In this document: positions 43,323 to 49,300 of the stretch, piece after piece
How the letters are laid out: each line of letters opens with the position of its first letter
How positions within the stretch are numbered: the stretch's first letter is position 1
NCBI RefSeq assembly: GCF_006345805.1
Contig: NC_042998.1
Span: 113,336,001 to 113,400,000, forward strand
DNA: 64,000 nucleotides
Reading direction: 5' to 3'
Source: Octopus sinensis
Lineage: Eukaryota
Made by a program: the position numbers

Positions 43323-46300
43323 CTGATTTGAAATTGTTCATTGTGCAAGTAAGCTGTAAAAATTGTATCTTTACTAAAACTTTAAATAGATTATTTCACA
43401 ATATCTATAACTATAAAGTCTCTCTTTTGCACTCACACATGGTTATATATACAGCAGACATAGAATGCCTTGAAAAAGGATAAACATATAACTATTTACA
43501 ATTATAATCACAAAATCAAGGCACGGAACTCTTTCTGCTGATGAAGCTTTTATGAAAGCTATAAATTTTTTAATGAGATTCTAGCCAGGTACAATATTAA
43601 ATTTAGTGAAATTATTAACCTTTCAATTACTATAGACCCAATGGTGAAAGTAAATAGGCCAGCGTTGCATACGTATCATCACTTTGATTATACGTGATTT
43701 TATTGATTTGTTTGAGAGTTTAGAATATTGATTTCTAACATAGACAAACAGCCACAAATTGTAGGAGAAGAGTTTCTCTCGATTGACTTGATTAATACTT
43801 TATCGATCCCAGAAGGATGAAATGTAATATCAGCCACAACAGGACTTGAACATAAAGACCACAAGATATTTGCCTTACACTACTGGTTTCTGCAGGTCCA
43901 CCACCTTTTGAATATTGTAATTTACTTGCAATATTCTCATTCATGGTCCAGAGCTTTTTTTTTTTTTTTCAATACTAGAAAATATTTCAGATTTAAAACA
44001 GATGGTGATCATTTACATTAATGTATGCTGACCATTAATAAATGTAATTCTGTAAGTGGCTGTGTGTGTGTGTGTATATATAGTGAGTGTGTGTGTGTAT
44101 GTATGTATATACATATATAGCTTATGTGGTGGGAGGAACTGTCTAACACAGCTCCTCCATCACTTTGATGACATCTTAAATGCACTAAGTGAGGGCTCCA
44201 ATGTGGATGTCATACACCTCGATTTCAGCAAGGCCTTTGACAGAGTCAACCACAATATACTGTTAAGGAAACTATCCAATGCTGGAGTCGGTGGAAAGCT
44301 ACTTCAATTGATTAGGCATTTCCTAACAAAGAAGACCCAGCATGTTGTGGCTGATGGCAACTACGCAAGTCCAGCAAAAGTCATCAGCGGAGTCCCGCTG
44401 GGTACTGTGCTGAGTCCACTTCTTTTTATTGTCTATATCAATGACATTGCAGATTCCATTGAACATAGCACCATTAAAATATATGCAGATTACTTTAAGC
44501 TCCAGAAAGTCGTTAAGAGAGCATATGATTGAACACTGCTTTAATTGGACCTATGTGCAGTAACCCAGTGGGCACAAAAAAACAATATGCAGTAGAACAA
44601 GGAAAAATTTGAGCTCATCCACTTTGGAAATGAGAGCACACTCAAACAACCATGTACACTACCGTCAGGAGACCTACTTGAACCGTCGGATAATATCAGA
44701 GACTAAGATGTAACTGTTGACAGTAACCTTAGCTGGAGTGTGCACATCAACAAAAAAGTCGATGTTGCCCACAGATTGTGCTCATGGATCCTCAGAACTT
44801 TTCAATCTAGGGATCATGAAACCATCATCTTTCTCTTCTCCACATTTGCTAGGCCCCACCTTGAATACTGCTGCCCATTGTGGTCTCCCTACAAAAACAA
44901 GACATAATGAGGATCAAAGTGCCACAAAGATCAATCACAAAAAAATAAATGGCATGATAGGACTTGATTATTGGGCTTGACCTAAACAGCCGAAGCTCTA
45001 TTCTCTGCAACGCTGCCGTGAGCGATACATTATTTGTACCATGTGGAAAATATTCCACCACTATTATCCAAATGATATCAGTATTATGTTTACAATTCAC
45101 CCAAGACTAGGCTCCCATGCAATGCGTCCCCTACAAAGGTCGAGATCACATCACATAAGAACATTGCGACACAATTTCTTCACTGCAAATGGTCCTGCAC
45201 TTTTCAATGTTATCCCGAAAGAGATTAAAGTCGAAAAAGACACCACAACTTTCAAATGGTACCTGGACAAATTCCTCCAGGGAATACTGGATAAACCACC
45301 TACACCTGGATATGTCTCAACTAACAACAACTCTCTGCTTGAGTGGTCCATAGTGTCCTGAAATAATTAACTAAAAGACTTTTCCAGGTGGTGCTTTTGA
45401 GTTAATCATGGCCTGGGCTGATAATGGCTGAAACTAATGTAAGTTATCTTCTAAGTTCATCATCATCATCATCATCATCGTTTAACGTCCGTTCTCCATG
45501 CTAAATATAACAATTGCAGCATGGAAGGTGTTTATAAGCCATTTAAGAAACACACAAAAACCGTTAGATTCACTTCAACATTTAAATTTAAATGCAATTG
45601 TTTTCGTTCTATATATATATATATATATTACAGAGATGTAGTTGCATAGCAAGTGACCTGGTCTGAGATCATGTGCTAGAGAACGAAGATCTAAAATCGA
45701 ACCAGGCAGCAGCATCGTCCGAATATTGTGGGCTTTTTAAATCAATGAATACACCGCCACCTAACCCAAGACTGAAGAAGTTTGAGGATGACTTGTGGGA
45801 CATCGTAAGGAAGATTAAGTTCAGGAAGTCACCCAGAAGAAATGATCACCTCAGATACCTAGATAAAATTACCAAGGATATTAATAGATCGGATGGAGTC
45901 CTGGTCCAGTCCGACAAGACCAGGAACACATACAAGTTACCCATTAAACAGTACCTAGATTTACTCGGAAAAGAGATCAAGAAGAATTATAGAACAACTA
46001 ATTGGAGTACATTGAGGAAAGTAAACTTGGAGATTAAGGAAATAATGTTTAAATACGGAATTCAAATGAGAACGCAGCCGCTTAGCCCTAAGCAACCTAG
46101 ATTTATAGTGAAGGACCATAAACCGAATTTCTACACCAACCCAGTGTTAAGACTCATATGCCCTGCTAGTTCTGATATCGGGACCATCAGTAAGTACATT
46201 TTAGATAAATATATCCCTAGTTTAGAAAACAAGCTGAAGCTTAGCCTCTGGGCTAACTCCTCGCAGGTAGTGAAGTGGTTCTCTTCCATCCCAAATAAGA

Positions 46301-49300
46301 ACCGTACTAGGTTTATTCAGTTTGATATCGCCAGCTTCTACCCCTCGATTAACCCTAGTGTACTAAATAAGGCCCTTTGGCATGCTCACAACAAGGCAGG
46401 CCTCACTAGAGAAGAAATTGATATTATTTTAGTTGCCAGAAAATCATTTATAAGGTTTGAAAATAAGTTGTGGATTCGTAAAGATACTCCCAATGAATTC
46501 GATGTGCCTATGGGTAGTTCGGATAGTGCGCAGATAGCCGATTTGGTCGGAATCTATATTCTCTACGAATTGTCCGACCAATTCCCGGATATCGCGGGCG
46601 GCCTGTATCGGGACGATTGTCTGTTTTACCTGCAAAACACCACGAACAGAATCGTACAGAAAACTAAGAATAGGTTAGCTAGGTTCTTTAATAGAATGGG
46701 CATGAATATAGTTTTTGATAATGAACTCACCAAGGCTAATTTCCTAGACGTTACACTAAACCTCCATAGCGATTCATACTGCCCTTACCATAAGCCTTCC
46801 ACTAATTTGAAGTATGTCAGTGTCTTCTCCAATCATGCCAAAACCGTAACAGACAATTTGGTTAAAAACATCTCTCTAAGATTGTCTAACTTGTCCGCTA
46901 GTGCCGACATTTTTATGCAGAAAGCGGAATTTTATAACGCCGCACTATCCAAAGCCGGTTATAGGCAGAAGGTAGTATATATTGATCCAGCCTTTCCGAT
47001 GCCACCATTCGGTCATCAGGATAGGGCCGTCTATAATAACATAAACAATTTAAGTAGTGACAGGAGCGCGGGGAGTGTTGGAGCAGGTACTTCCAGATTT
47101 AATTTAGGGAACAAAGATAATTATCGGTCCGGGGGAGTTCACACTAAACCAAAACCCGTTATTCATCCTATAATCACCCACCCTAATGTTAGAGCTGGCT
47201 TCCCGACCCATCACATAAATAGGAATAAGCATATATGGTTTGTAATTCCCTTTGGTAAGCAGATTAGAACTAACCTTCCCCTCCTGTTTCGACAAGCCAT
47301 CGCCAGTAACTTCCCCAGAAATTCCAAATATTACTCCACGGTTAATTCGCATAAAGTTAGGATAGCTTTCTCCAACACAAAAAACCTTTCCCAGATAATC
47401 GCCTCCCATAATAATAGGCTGCTTATTAAGACCCTACCACCTTTGTCCGGAGGCGCAGCTCCGTCCGCTCCTAGTTTAACGCTCAGTAGGAATAATAATA
47501 GTAGTAATAATGATAAGAGAGCCAGTACAGTGACTGATAATCTCAGTACCAACCAGGGATTAAATACTAGGTGTAACGATAGAAGAAATGGTGATGTCAT
47601 TAACGTTAGTAATGGCAATAGTGAGGTGAGCGCAGCTCGGGTCATTAATGTAGAGAGTCCTAATAGCAACTCCAGCATCGTTTCCGGCAATAGCAGGCCC
47701 GCGGATACTAGCAATTACAGCGCTCTCAGTGATAGGGAAGACTCAGGGGTTAGTCCGTTAATTAATAGCGACTTTGAGGAATATAAAGTAGTAAGCGGCC
47801 GCAGTTCTCGCAATCAATATAGTAACAGTAACGCAGTTCTAATTTCAGAAGCTAATCCCAATAGAATAAGGTTCTTGTCGAGTAACTCCAAGATCAGAAA
47901 TGCCATTTACCAATGTAAGGTTTACACGGACTCAGATGTCTACTCGTATGTCGGGGCCTCATCGTCAGAATTGGCCTTGCGAATTTCCAACCATTTCGCA
48001 ACTTTTCGCGACGTGAATAAATACCAAGCTACGGGACTTAGCAAGCTTATATGGCGTTTGAAGAACGCGAACTCAGGGTTCAGGCTGGAATGGTCGATTT
48101 TGTCGGTGGCCCTCCCATTTGATAGGGGCAGAAGGAAGTGCAATCTTTGTGTCTCTGAGCTTTTCCACATATTGTTCGCCAGAGACCGGTTGGTAAACGG
48201 ACTTTTACAGTCGGCTTTTCGATGTCCCCATTGGCGGCGTTATACTTACCTTGCTTATAAATGATACCTAAGACAATTAGCACCTTGTTACCCTACTAAA
48301 ATGAAAATAATCCTTGGAAATAATTTTTGAAAAAGCTTTTTAAGAAATATATGAATAACCCTTGCAAGGGGAAATTACTCCCATTAGGCGAATGGTGGTT
48401 TGTTTTGGAAGCAAACGCTGGAATTTTATATACCCTTAGGATTCTTTGACGACGTTAATTTTTTGACAAGCAGGCCTAGACGAACACACGAACACAAAAA
48501 ATATTTTCTGCTGCCTGACGAATTTTTCAGCAGTGACCATTATGTAGCGCCTTTTACCAACATACGGCCGCGCACACATAGGCCAGTACACACATACATG
48601 CTTCTAGGTAGTTTTTGTCTCGCCCCCCAAAAATACACCCAGTATTCTTAAAATATTCAGAATTTTAGTTTTGGTCACACAGAACATCTCCACACCCCTT
48701 GCTCTCACCTACTGGATTTGACCGCCGCCTGACCTGTAAATATCTTCAACGCACCCACCATCCGATTTCAACGTACATTGATAAACAGTTCAGCCATGGG
48801 CTCTTAAAGAGCCTCCTCGTTCAAATTGCTTTGCTGCGCCTCTGTTCTGTTTTGTTCTGCCAACGGAATTCCTATTTTTTCCTGACGAGAAAGCCACAAT
48901 ATGGTATCCTTATTTAATCAGAATTTGGAAAATTGTGGCTTTTGAAACATGTGTAGAATGCAATAAAAGGAATTCTGTTCAATCTTCGTTCAACTCCATT
49001 TCTTCAATTCACTATATATATATATATATATATATATAAATATATATATGTGTGTATATATATATATATGTGTATATATATATATATATAAATAAAGAGA
49101 GAGAGAGATACATCATCATGATGTAATGTCCGTTTTCCATGCTGGCATGAGTTGGATGGTTTAACAGGAACTGGCAAGCCAGAGAGCTTCACTGGGCTCC
49201 AGTTGTCTGTTTTTTATGGCTGAATGCTCTTCCTAATGCTAACCACTTTATTGAGTATATTGAATGCTCTTTATGTGGTGCCAGCACAGATATTTTCCCA

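What the first reader, a model, noticed from the sequence alone, without database searches (positions are those of the whole stretch)
45629..49012. Intact, apparently young Naiad-type Penelope retroelement: RT + GIY-YIG + hammerhead, embedded in (TA)n
Seen: a 2.6-kb stop-free ORF with RT (FD..YRDD) and GIY-YIG catalytic residues, abundant CpG in a CpG-poor region, a 3' hammerhead and (TA)n on both sides. Every other LINE-type element in the window is decayed. Known: CxxC inside the GIY-YIG domain plus a terminal CxH marks the Naiad/Chlamys PLE clade, reported to associate with microsatellites. Inference: a recently active family, and a candidate driver for the TA-embedded ribozyme and foldback elements nearby.
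Basis: partly seen in the sequence, partly recalled or inferred. Interest (0 to 1): 0.85.

Follow-up and report, generated by a model that had tools for sequence, protein, structure and literature searches.

The report
Young truncated Hydra-type Penelope retroelement
This is a recently inserted but 5'-truncated copy of a Penelope-like retrotransposon sitting in a TA microsatellite of an octopus-like genome; it belongs to the already described Hydra type, not the Naiad type, and is unusual only in having lost a conserved cysteine motif.

Summary
The sequence features are real. There is an 865-codon stop-free frame at 45667-48264. [quoted passage not shown] CpG o/e is 0.83 against about 0.3 in the flanks. 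(TA)n abuts both ends. A hammerhead-like core lies 33-150 nt from the 3' end.

The clade assignment is wrong. Naiad/Chlamys elements carry the nuclease at the N-terminus and lack canonical hammerheads (Craig et al. 2021). This ORF and its roughly 700-aa relatives instead show the published Hydra-clade signature: C-terminal nuclease, DKT, no CCHH, CxxC and CxH around the catalytic E and N, and (TA)n insertion.

The copy is not intact. It lacks the N-terminal 45-65 residues, including the RW(K/R) block, that 48 aligned relatives keep. It has no upstream pseudo-LTR. It is best read as a dead-on-arrival product of target-primed reverse transcription, and it is young because the frame is still open.

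One feature is unusual. All four cysteines of the CxCX5C-type linker are replaced, here and in Octopus sinensis relatives. 131 of 132 other relatives keep a CxC linker; the other keeps CxS.

Rfam models do not detect the hammerhead, and nothing links this element to the nearby ribozyme or foldback loci. This is a new variant of a known kind, of moderate-to-low interest.

The parts
45610..45628 (.). Left (TA)9.5 tract, abutting the 5' end of the insertion. Presumed half of the target microsatellite.
   Evidence: TRF, 100% matches; sequence.
45629..45681 (+). 5'-terminal segment with no match to relatives. It holds the in-frame stop TGA at 45664-45666. It is either a divergent ORF remnant or the 30-40 bp 'tail' described for PLE insertion ends.
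   Evidence: tblastn matches of 7 relatives start at 45682-45736. The tail is described in PMC8557442 section 6. The tail reading is inference.
45667..48264 (+). Single ORF of 865 codons plus a stop. The first ATG is at 45745. No frameshift relative to relatives.
   Evidence: P0001 residues 62-786 align to 45736-48231 in a single tblastn segment.
45724..47010 (+). Reverse transcriptase with a telomerase-like fold (ORF residues ~20-448). It includes DKT (45913-45921), motif A FDIASFYPSI (46321-46350), motif C YRDD (46606-46617) and the thumb NFLDVTLNL..PYHKPS..SNHA.
   Evidence: Alignment. AF2 pLDDT is mostly above 90. Foldseek: 7 of the top 10 PDB hits are telomerase RTs, best E 4.6e-09.
47011..47220 (+). 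Disordered spacer 1 (residues 449-518).
   Evidence: pLDDT below 50. Only 43% identity to O. sinensis P0230, against 87% in the adjoining domain.
47221..47445 (+). Conserved block between RT and nuclease (residues 519-593; family consensus WFNPPF...FNR.T.K.SYSC, here WFVIPF...VNSHKVRIAFSN).
   Evidence: pLDDT 85-95; 84% identity to P0230.
47446..47820 (+). N/S-rich disordered spacer 2 (residues 594-718). Its length varies between relatives, and it is the source of misleading gene names in Octopus annotations.
   Evidence: pLDDT below 50; alignment; names.
47821..47901 (+). Degenerate linker (residues 719-745). It stands in the position of the CxCX5C...C cysteine motif. All four cysteines are replaced (S, S, N, S by the alignment).
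   Evidence: The same cysteine-free linker is found in O. sinensis P0202 and P0230.
47902..48237 (+). GIY-YIG nuclease domain (residues 746-857): IY748, Y761-V-G763, R772, H776, CxxC 825-828, E831, N844, CxH 853-855.
   Evidence: Alignment. AF2 of residues 722-865: pLDDT 82.6. The top 7 Foldseek PDB hits are T4 EndoII and Hpy188I, and I-TevI is at rank 28.
48265..49012 (+). 3' untranslated region of 748 bp. It is part of the same unit, judged by its CpG content.
   Evidence: CpG o/e 0.78 against 0.29 in the right flank. No other copy in the window.
48862..48979 (+). Hammerhead-like type I motif. Outer helix I is 48862-48873 paired with 48968-48979. C2.1 is 48881 and CUGACGA is 48882-48888. Helix II is 12 bp within 48889-48943. 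GAA-A15.1 is 48944-48947. The quasi-palindrome ACAUGUGU is 48947-48954, with U16.1 at 48954 and A17 at 48955. The predicted cut is after 48955.
   Evidence: RNAfold z -2.95, with 0 of 200 shuffles folding as well. Hand-built descriptors. Not found by Rfam.
49013..49094 (.). Right (TA)41 tract with TG interruptions, abutting the 3' end.
   Evidence: TRF score 115, 90% matches.

Best explanation
Window 45629-49012 is one copy of a Penelope-like retrotransposon (PLE) of the Hydra type. It has a single ORF encoding a telomerase-like reverse transcriptase followed by a C-terminal GIY-YIG nuclease, then a 750-bp 3' region with a hammerhead-like motif near its end.

Likely mechanism (inferred from what is established for PLEs): the nuclease nicked a (TA)n microsatellite. 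The RT then used the freed 3'-OH to copy the element's RNA from its 3' end (target-primed reverse transcription). Copying or joining stopped before the 5' end. The copy therefore lacks the N-terminal 45-65 codons and any upstream pseudo-LTR or promoter, and was dead on arrival.

A neutrally evolving copy that still has an open 865-codon frame and a near-equilibrium CpG content must be young, roughly 1% or less diverged from its source on my rough estimate.

It belongs to an Octopus sub-lineage that has replaced all four cysteines of the otherwise conserved linker in front of the nuclease.

Shown here: the ORF, the domain folds, the motif pattern, the truncation relative to relatives, the TA flanks and the CpG contrast. 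Inferred: TPRT, the nicking specificity, ribozyme activity and the age.
For: Homology. The full scan found 7760 representative proteins at E<=1e-3 and 275 at E<=1e-30. The word-indexed search found 86 hits, with the best full-length relatives at 36-39% identity and E down to 1e-124.

Family motifs among the 229 relatives then held:
- RW[KRQM] in the first 80 residues: 90 (RWK 57, RWR 31).
- DKT 102 and DKS 28.
- Y[RH]DD: 203.
- CxC-x4-8-CP: 123, of which 85 have X5.
- CxxCxxE: 124.
- CxH in the last 60 residues: 112.
This is the combination that Craig et al. give in words for Hydra (section 11).

The window ORF matches 93 of 121 columns that are at least 85% conserved in 48 relatives. These include DKT, motif A, YRDD, the thumb, and GIY-YIG Y, G, R, H, E and N, plus CxxC and CxH.

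Folds. The RT model has pLDDT 75.8 overall and above 90 in the domains. 7 of its top 10 PDB matches are telomerase RTs. The nuclease model has pLDDT 82.6. Its 7 best PDB matches are T4 EndoII and Hpy188I chains, with E 8e-3 to 6e-2 and probability 0.60-0.97, and I-TevI is at rank 28. That these proteins are GIY-YIG enzymes is recalled. The nearest ESM Atlas clusters carry HTH_animal, DUF8422, GIY-YIG and RVT_1.

Truncation. Matches of 7 full-length relatives start at their residues 45-73, and their N-termini match nothing in the window (alignment).

Target and age. (TA)n lies on both sides, while TA tracts make up 0.70% of the window. CpG o/e is 0.83 against about 0.3.

Host lineage. The closest relatives are named Octopus sinensis and O. 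bimaculoides models. P0230 is 68% identical over 519 aa, with 78-87% identity in folded domains against 43-47% in disordered spacers. In a quick tree the window ORF pairs with P0230 (SH-aLRT 100). The pair sits inside a 6-row set (97) with Argonauta P0015 and with the cysteine-bearing P0001 and P0002.
Against: - I had no named Hydra, Naiad, Neptune, Nematis or Penelope reference sequences. The clade call therefore rests on motifs described in the text of one paper, not on a phylogeny with references.
- Two features described for Hydra are not met by this copy. The CxCX5C linker is absent, and the unit is 3,384 bp although Hydra elements are said to be generally under 3 kb.
- The RWK block cannot be seen because that part is missing.
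- Pfam gives no hit for the ORF at E<=1. Only 1 of 7 relatives touches RVT_1, and it does so below the cut-off. Sequence searches of the PDB give nothing useful.
- The Foldseek evidence for the nuclease is weak in E-value (8e-3).
- No Rfam hammerhead match. The hand-drawn motif has G10.1-U11.1 instead of G-C and a helix III that can only form between two copies.
- There is no pseudo-LTR and no second copy in the window, so copy number and divergence are unknown.
- High CpG could reflect lack of methylation rather than youth.
- The missing N-terminus could be a trait of the sub-lineage. No Octopus relative covering that part was found.
Confidence: 0.8

Rival explanations
1. It is a Naiad (or Chlamys) type PLE.
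For: It inserted into (TA)n, which Craig et al. also report for Naiads (passages). The RT is PLE- and telomerase-like.
Against: The defining N-terminal position of the nuclease is not met, because the nuclease is C-terminal. The motif is DKT, not DKA. There is no CCHH: a single Cys lies between the GIY and YIG halves. No CxC motif lies upstream of the RT. Naiads are described as lacking canonical hammerheads, and as old remnants in cephalopods. All close relatives have the same C-terminal order.
Confidence: 0.03
2. It is a complete, autonomous and currently active element. On this reading the Octopus sub-lineage simply starts at the Met at 45745 and does not need the N-terminal block.
For: The frame is open for 865 codons and the catalytic residues are kept. 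No Octopus relative that covers the N-terminus was found, so the sub-lineage's true start is unknown.
Against: The S.KNIP.P...RW block is 97-100% conserved in the 48 relatives used for the conserved-column count, including the octopod Argonauta hians protein. Homology runs upstream of the first Met, to about 45682. The unit begins 38 nt before the frame, directly at a TA tract. It has no upstream copy of its 3' region, so no pseudo-LTR that could hold a promoter.
Confidence: 0.1
3. It is a canonical C-terminal-nuclease PLE (Neptune, Nematis or Penelope/Poseidon) rather than Hydra.
For: It has the same domain order, and (TA)n targeting is also known for Neptune (passage). I ran no reference phylogeny.
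Against: CCHH, described as universal to those clades, is absent. The motif is DKT instead of DKG. Relatives have RWK and CxCX5C instead of GxKF/Y and CX2-5CxxC. Pfam RVT_1 and GIY-YIG models fail on the ORF. That fits the paper's remark that Hydra forms a cluster highly distinct from canonical PLEs.
Confidence: 0.05
4. It is a host gene or a domesticated PLE-derived gene, as the RefSeq names of its Octopus relatives (myb-like, GATA zinc finger, dyrk1) would suggest.
For: It has a long open frame, and folded domains are more conserved than spacers between the window and O. sinensis. Relatives are annotated as genes.
Against: The names stem from the N/S-rich spacer. The protein is an RT plus a nuclease. 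The unit is bounded by TA repeats, and its CpG is unlike its surroundings. There are several diverged paralogues at 46-73% identity on different O. sinensis and O. bimaculoides contigs. The copy is truncated relative to the family.
Confidence: 0.02

Closest known systems
Hydra clade of Penelope-like elements (Craig, Yushenova, Rodriguez, Arkhipova 2021, PMC8557442, section 11)
   Same: Single ORF with a C-terminal GIY-YIG nuclease. DKT in place of DKG. No CCHH. CxxC and CxH on either side of the catalytic E and N. Divergent RT motif B. A hammerhead-type motif near the 3' end. Insertion into (TA)n. Relatives carry RW(K/R) and CxCX5C. The hosts are aquatic invertebrates, including molluscs.
   Different: This copy and its Octopus relatives have lost all four linker cysteines. 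They carry two long disordered spacers, which make the unit 3.4 kb even when truncated, against a 'generally <3 kb' description. The hammerhead is not canonical enough for Rfam. The RWK block is missing through truncation. Whether Octopus Hydra families are already listed in that paper's supplementary file S1 could not be checked.
Naiad/Chlamys PLEs (same paper)
   Same: A PLE-type, telomerase-like RT and a GIY-YIG nuclease. Microsatellite insertion, with (TA)n in Naiads. Frequent 5' truncation.
   Different: The nuclease is N-terminal in Naiad/Chlamys and C-terminal here. Those clades have a CxC motif between EN and RT, and an insertion-in-fingers domain; Naiads also have DKA and CCHH (Chlamys lack CCHH). 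None of these was seen here.
Neptune and Nematis PLEs
   Same: A C-terminal nuclease preceded by a cysteine linker, (TA)n preference, and hammerheads in pseudo-LTRs.
   Different: Those clades have CCHH inside the GIY-YIG core, a CX2-5CxxC linker and DKG. None is present here.
Minimal dimeric hammerheads of metazoan PLEs (Cervera and de la Pena 2014, PMC4209133)
   Same: Type I topology. A longer-than-usual helix II, a short or irregular helix I, and a (quasi-)palindromic helix III segment that would pair between two copies. Located in the terminal repeat region.
   Different: Helix II is 12 bp with a 31-nt loop, against 7-8 bp in those motifs. 10.1-11.1 is G-U instead of the conserved G-C. 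There is no bulged base after position 9 in the best register. Only one copy is present, so no dimer can form in cis.

Membership tests
Hydra-clade PLE | Single ORF with a C-terminal GIY-YIG nuclease | tested here: met
   The nuclease occupies residues 746-857 of 865. The fold matches T4 EndoII, Hpy188I and I-TevI.
Hydra-clade PLE | DKG motif modified to DKT | tested here: met
   D83-K84-T85, at 45913-45921. Among relatives, DKT occurs 102 times and DKS 28 times.
Hydra-clade PLE | N-terminal RWK motif | tested here: not met
   This part is absent from the window copy through 5' truncation. It is present in relatives: RWK 57 and RWR 31 of 229.
Hydra-clade PLE | CCHH motif absent from the nuclease | tested here: met
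   Only one Cys (C750) lies between the GIY and YIG halves, and most relatives have none there.
Hydra-clade PLE | Linker with a CxCX5C motif upstream of the nuclease | tested here: not met
   All four cysteine columns are 100% conserved in 48 relatives, and all are replaced here. Of 132 relatives spanning RT to EN, 124 match CxC-x3-9-C, 7 have CxC with a longer spacer and 1 has CxS. O. sinensis P0202 and P0230 lack the motif, like the window.
Hydra-clade PLE | [quoted passage not shown] | tested here: met
   C825-x2-C828, E831, N844 and C853-x-H855.
Hydra-clade PLE | Canonical hammerhead readily detected | tested here: inconclusive
   No Rfam hammerhead match. A hand-found motif with a complete core lies at 48881-48956.
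Hydra-clade PLE | Insertion into (TA)n | tested here: met
   (TA)9.5 and (TA)41 abut both ends. TA tracts make up 0.70% of the window.
Hydra-clade PLE | Short element, generally under 3 kb | tested here: not met
   3,384 bp although truncated. The excess comes from two disordered spacers and a 748-bp 3' region.
Hydra-clade PLE | RT groups with named Hydra references in a phylogeny | not tested
   No named PLE reference sequences were reachable with these tools, and supplements are closed. The tree holds unnamed relatives only.
Hydra-clade PLE | No insertion-in-fingers domain between RT motifs A and B | tested here: inconclusive
   63 residues lie between D220 and G283, the same spacing as in all relatives. 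Without canonical PLE references the length cannot be judged.
Naiad/Chlamys PLE | N-terminal GIY-YIG nuclease | tested here: not met
   The nuclease is C-terminal in the window ORF and in all 47 full-length relatives.
Naiad/Chlamys PLE | CxC motif between EN and RT, and DKA (Naiad) | tested here: not met
   DKT is present, and no CxC lies upstream of the RT.
Naiad PLE | CCHH motif in the nuclease | tested here: not met
Penelope-like elements in general | RT most similar to telomerase RT | tested here: met
   7 of the top 10 Foldseek PDB hits are telomerase RTs, with a best E of 4.6e-09.
Penelope-like elements in general | Pseudo-LTRs from partial tandem copies | tested here: not met
   No repeat of any part of the unit occurs elsewhere in the window. 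This is expected for a 5'-truncated solo copy.
GIY-YIG nuclease superfamily | Fold and catalytic Y, Y/G, R, H, E and N | tested here: met
   The residues are kept. The fold hits are weak in E-value, 8e-3 with probability 0.97. Pfam PF01541 did not hit the ORF, but it is carried by the nearest Atlas clusters.
Hammerhead ribozyme, type I | Invariant core C3 U4 G5 A6 G8 A9 G12 A13 A14 A15.1 U16.1 H17, with three helices | tested here: inconclusive
   The core is complete in one register. Helix II of 12 bp and the outer helix I are supported by folding. Helix III forms only between two copies, and 10.1-11.1 is G-U. Rfam models find no match. No other copies were available for covariation.
Hammerhead ribozyme, type I | Self-cleavage | not testable with these tools
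   This needs in vitro transcription of one and two copies.

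The most novel reading that the evidence does not exclude
An Octopus-specific lineage of Hydra-type PLEs has replaced all four cysteines of the linker that precedes the nuclease. That linker is the part Craig et al. link to (TA)n targeting. The lineage nevertheless remained under protein-level constraint, was active recently in a cephalopod genome, and still lands in (TA)n. If so, (TA)n targeting does not depend on the zinc-knuckle-like linker and must lie elsewhere, in the nuclease core or the RT, or in RNA-DNA pairing at the TA-rich end.
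Probability: 0.3. Interest if true: 0.55.

Novelty: new variant of a known kind. Interest (0 to 1): 0.35.

Why it matters
The finding corrects a clade assignment. The CxxC/CxH signature marks Hydra-type PLEs, not Naiad-type ones.

It shows that a little-studied PLE clade was active recently in an octopod genome. In that group Naiads are reported only as remnants.

The cysteine-free linker offers a natural test of the published idea that the linker directs insertion into (TA)n.

It also flags that RefSeq models of this family in Octopus carry misleading gene names such as myb-like, GATA zinc finger and dyrk1.

Beyond that, it is an ordinary dead-on-arrival retrotransposon copy.

Tried and rejected
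- Pfam on the ORF gave no family at E<=1. On 7 relatives, only P0034 touched RVT_1, and it was below the cut-off.
- phmmer of the ORF and a 52-sequence profile against PDB sequences gave only 4 chance-level hits, and none, respectively.
- Rfam was run at gathering score on the whole window, then at E<=10 on 4 kb and on 146 bases. No hammerhead family appeared. The only hits were TA-repeat 'miRNA' and other weak matches.
- A second CUGACGAA at about 48516 was considered as a ribozyme core. It was dropped because it passed neither descriptor.
- A monomeric helix III (CAU/AUG with a 7-nt loop) was considered. It was rejected because it puts C opposite A15.1.
- A search for short proteins covering ORF residues 1-160, meant to learn the true N-terminus of the Octopus sub-lineage, scored 53 candidates and found nothing.
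- Self-comparison for pseudo-LTRs, tandem or inverted partial copies, and other copies found none.
- Alignment of the two hammerhead-like loci showed no homology beyond the core.
- The careful tree did not finish in time. The quick tree (SH-aLRT only, midpoint root) is what I report. I chose its 52 rows by hand: 47 relatives with all six motifs, plus P0015, P0230, P0089, P0092 and the window ORF.
- My hammerhead descriptors were written after I had seen the motif. Shuffles also destroy natural hairpins. The counts are therefore indicative only: 2 loci against 0.11 expected, and 2 against 0.025 for helix II of 8 bp or more, with 0 of 200 shuffles reaching 2.
- The age estimate uses the computed share of substitutions that create a stop, 0.030-0.041. 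It also uses an indel-to-substitution ratio of about 0.1 that I recalled rather than measured.
- Not checked: copy number, divergence, insertion-site logo and polymorphism.
- Not checked: supplements of PMC8557442 (file S1 host list, file S2 hammerheads, figs S2 and S7). These may bear on whether Octopus Hydra families and their ribozymes are already catalogued. They are closed and I did not ask for them.
- Complex prediction and the phage, plasmid and E. coli collections were not relevant and not used.

Full report
**What is in the sequence.** Between two TA microsatellites lies a 3,384-bp unit. The tracts are (TA)9.5 at 45610-45628 and (TA)41 at 49013-49094. The unit holds one frame of 865 codons without a stop, at 45667-48264 on the + strand. 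Only one other frame in the window reaches 200 aa, and that is a WD40-repeat stretch running off the window's end. At the window's stop-codon frequency of 0.059, a frame this long has a chance of about 1e-23. CpG o/e is 0.83 in the unit: 0.86 in the ORF and 0.78 in the 3' region. It is 0.34 and 0.29 in the 5-kb flanks and 0.32 overall. TA tracts of six or more units cover 0.70% of the window (21 tracts), so an insertion bounded by TA on both sides is unlikely to be chance. The window has no N. There is no other copy of any part of the unit in the window, at either the DNA or the protein level.

**What the protein is.** Pfam finds nothing in the ORF at E<=1, and sequence searches of the PDB are empty. 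Homology searches are nevertheless clear. The exhaustive scan found 7760 representative proteins at E<=1e-3 and 275 at E<=1e-30. The word-indexed search found 86 hits, with full-length relatives of about 700 aa at 36-39% identity and E down to 1e-124. Many of these sit on contigs of 2.3-3.5 kb.

An AlphaFold2 model built on 52 aligned sequences has a mean pLDDT of 75.8 and pTM of 0.73. Residues 20-448, 519-593 and 734-865 are mostly above 85-90. Residues 449-518 and 594-733 are below 50. Against the PDB, 7 of the top 10 matches are telomerase reverse transcriptases from Candida and Tribolium, with a best E of 4.6e-09. The other 3 are bacterial DRT9 or DRT2 reverse transcriptases.

A separate model of residues 722-865 has pLDDT 82.6. 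Its seven best matches are chains of T4 endonuclease II and the restriction enzyme Hpy188I (E 8e-3 to 6e-2, probability 0.60-0.97). The I-TevI catalytic domain follows at rank 28. That these proteins are GIY-YIG nucleases is from my own knowledge. The nearest ESM Atlas clusters carry HTH_animal, DUF8422, GIY-YIG and RVT_1, with members from Cnidaria, Ctenophora, Arthropoda and Mollusca.

A telomerase-like RT joined to a GIY-YIG nuclease is the hallmark of Penelope-like elements.

**Which kind of Penelope-like element.** I read the abstract, sections 5, 6, 11 and 12, and further passages of Craig et al. 2021 (PMC8557442).

- Naiad and Chlamys are defined there by an N-terminal nuclease joined to the RT through a CxC domain. 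They have an insertion-in-fingers domain and lack canonical hammerheads. Naiads also have DKA and CCHH; Chlamys lack CCHH and have DK without a conserved third residue. In cephalopods, Naiads are said to be present 'only as remnants'.
- The Hydra clade is described as short single-ORF elements with a C-terminal nuclease. It has RWK instead of GxKF/Y, DKT instead of DKG, a hard-to-align motif B, no CCHH, and a linker changed to CxCX5C. [quoted passage not shown] Its hosts include Mollusca.

The relatives I collected show exactly the Hydra combination. Among 229 proteins:

- 90 have RW[KRQM] in the first 80 residues (RWK 57, RWR 31).
- DKT occurs 102 times and DKS 28 times.
- 203 have Y[RH]DD.
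- 123 have CxC-x4-8-CP, of which 85 have a five-residue spacer.
- 124 have CxxCxxE.
- 112 have CxH near the C-terminus.
- 47 have all six features.

The window ORF has DKT (45913-45921), FDIASFYPSI, YRDD, the thumb motifs, Y748, Y761/G763, R772, H776, C825-x2-C828, E831, N844 and C853-x-H855. It has a single Cys between the GIY and YIG halves, so no CCHH. Overall it matches 93 of 121 columns that are at least 85% conserved in 48 relatives.

The element is therefore Hydra-like, not Naiad. I could not run the RT phylogeny against named clade references, because no such sequences are reachable with these tools and the paper's supplements are closed. The assignment rests on motifs and domain order.

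**The copy is not intact.** In the alignment, the window ORF starts about 65 residues inside the family. It lacks the S.KNIP.P...RW(K/R) block, which is 97-100% conserved in the 48 relatives. tblastn with seven full-length relatives starts at their residues 45-73 (window 45682-45736). Their N-termini match nothing else in the window. Homology runs upstream of the first ATG at 45745. An in-frame stop lies at 45664-45666, and the unit begins at 45629 directly after the TA tract. There is no upstream repeat of the 3' region, so no pseudo-LTR. P0001 aligns across 45736-48231 in a single segment, so there are no frameshifts.

The simplest reading is a 5'-truncated product of target-primed reverse transcription, which is typical of PLEs. 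The first 53 nt, which have no homology, may be the 30-40-bp 'tail' that the paper describes at insertion ends. That is only a guess.

**Age.** A truncated copy without a promoter should drift neutrally. In this ORF, 3.0-4.1% of single-base substitutions create a stop. With a recalled indel share of about 10%, an open 865-codon frame becomes unlikely beyond roughly 1% divergence. That is an inference. Together with the CpG contrast, this supports 'young'. Copy number and divergence in the genome remain untested.

**Relatives and host.** The closest proteins are named gene models from Octopus sinensis and O. bimaculoides: P0087 at 73%, P0132 at 60%, P0202 at 57% and P0160 at 48%. They are annotated as myb-like, GATA zinc-finger-like or dyrk1, evidently because of the N/S-rich spacer. 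The window is therefore probably octopod.

O. sinensis P0230 is 68% identical over 519 aa. Identity is 87%, 84% and 78% in the three folded parts, against 43% and 47% in the two disordered spacers. That is the pattern expected if the lineage evolved under protein-level constraint.

In a quick maximum-likelihood tree of 52 rows (SH-aLRT only, midpoint root; the careful run did not finish), the window ORF pairs with P0230 with support 100. The pair sits on a long stem of 1.05 changes per column. It lies inside a 6-row set (support 97) with the Argonauta hians protein P0015, P0001, P0002 and P0092, and inside an 8-row set (support 99) with P0088 and P0089.

**The one unusual feature.** The four cysteines of the linker (CxCX5C-P...C) are 100% conserved in the 48 aligned relatives, but all are replaced in the window ORF. 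The same cysteine-free but otherwise conserved linker occurs in O. sinensis P0202 and P0230. Of 132 other relatives that span RT motif C to the nuclease, 124 match CxC-x3-9-C. Seven have CxC with a longer spacer, and one has CxS. The tree neighbours that span the linker (P0001, P0002 and P0088) keep the cysteines. The loss therefore looks derived, although the tree's root is not established.

Craig et al. associate this linker with (TA)n targeting. Here a cysteine-free lineage has landed in (TA)n. One insertion cannot settle the point, and mobilisation in trans by a cysteine-bearing relative is not excluded.

**The hammerhead.** Rfam finds none. By hand, a type I arrangement fits at 48862-48979:

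- An outer helix pairs 48862-48873 with 48968-48979.
- C2.1 is at 48881 and CUGACGA at 48882-48888.
- A 12-bp helix II with a 31-nt loop lies within 48889-48943.
- GAA and A15.1 are at 48944-48947.
- The segment ACAUGUGU is at 48947-48954 and pairs with itself, allowing two G-U pairs.
- A17 is at 48955 and G1.1 at 48956, which pairs with C2.1.

The fold of 48858-48985 has a z-score of -2.95, and 0 of 200 shuffles fold as well. Core boxes bracketing a helix of 8 bp or more occur twice in the window, against 0.025 per shuffle, and 0 of 200 shuffles reach 2. My fuller descriptor gives 2 loci against 0.11 expected. Both descriptors were written after seeing the motif.

A long helix II, a weak helix I and a palindromic helix III that works only between two copies are what Cervera and de la Pena 2014 describe for metazoan PLE hammerheads (passages of PMC4209133). 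Their conserved G10.1-C11.1 pair is G-U here, and only one copy is present. I rate the ribozyme as plausible but unproven.

**The 'driver' idea.** The second hammerhead-like locus (43061-43109) and the foldback at 42841-42912 share no sequence with this element beyond the core boxes. A 2026 preprint argues that animal retrozymes derive from PLE termini. I saw passages of 10.64898/2026.07.22.740005. The idea is reasonable in general, but nothing here ties those loci to this family.

**Literature.** Searches for Penelope-like/Octopus/Hydra, Penelope/Octopus/GIY-YIG and Penelope-like/Nematis/Hydra returned only Craig et al. 2021 and the 2026 preprint. I found no description of a cysteine-free Hydra lineage or of recent Hydra activity in cephalopods in the held library. 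The supplements of Craig et al. could list Octopus families, and I could not see them.

**Verdict.** This is a new variant of a known kind, of moderate-to-low interest.

Noticed in passing
window 43061-43109 (+), within about 43008-43150: A second hammerhead-like core: CUGAAGA, an 8-bp helix II, GAAA, a near-palindromic helix III segment and A17. It sits in a unit of about 140 nt between short TA tracts. It shares only the core boxes with the element's 3' end. It may be a solo 3' end of another PLE family or a retrozyme-like unit.
   Followed up: partly
window 42803-42912: (TA)n(TG)n is followed directly by a 72-nt perfect foldback at 42841-42912. It has no similarity to the PLE.
   Followed up: no
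window 56001-58000: CpG o/e is 0.90, as high as in the PLE and far above the window mean of 0.32. The only frames of 90 aa or more there are 55504-55857 and 56482-57063, both on the minus strand. This may be another young insertion or a CpG island.
   Followed up: partly
window 44056-44532 (+) and 44981-45361 (+): Broken LINE-type reverse transcriptase just upstream. The first piece matches RVT_1 at E 9e-15 over a 158-aa piece. The second piece has no significant Pfam match.
   Followed up: partly
window 63177-63998 (-): A WD40-repeat coding stretch (WD40 E 7e-16) runs off the window's end. It is probably an exon of a host gene.
   Followed up: partly
window 45457-45500 and 49110-49160: Two similar SINE-like heads, (TCA)n followed by a conserved ...cgt(c/t)cgtt..ccatgct box, lie on either side of the TA tract that holds the PLE.
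   Followed up: no
proteins P0087, P0202, P0230, P0132, P0160, P0015 (Octopus sinensis, O. bimaculoides, Argonauta hians RefSeq models): Fragments of this PLE family are annotated as myb-like protein I, dyrk1 kinase, GATA zinc finger domain-containing protein 4/14-like or an uncharacterised DDB_G protein. The names evidently come from the N/S-rich low-complexity spacer.
   Followed up: yes
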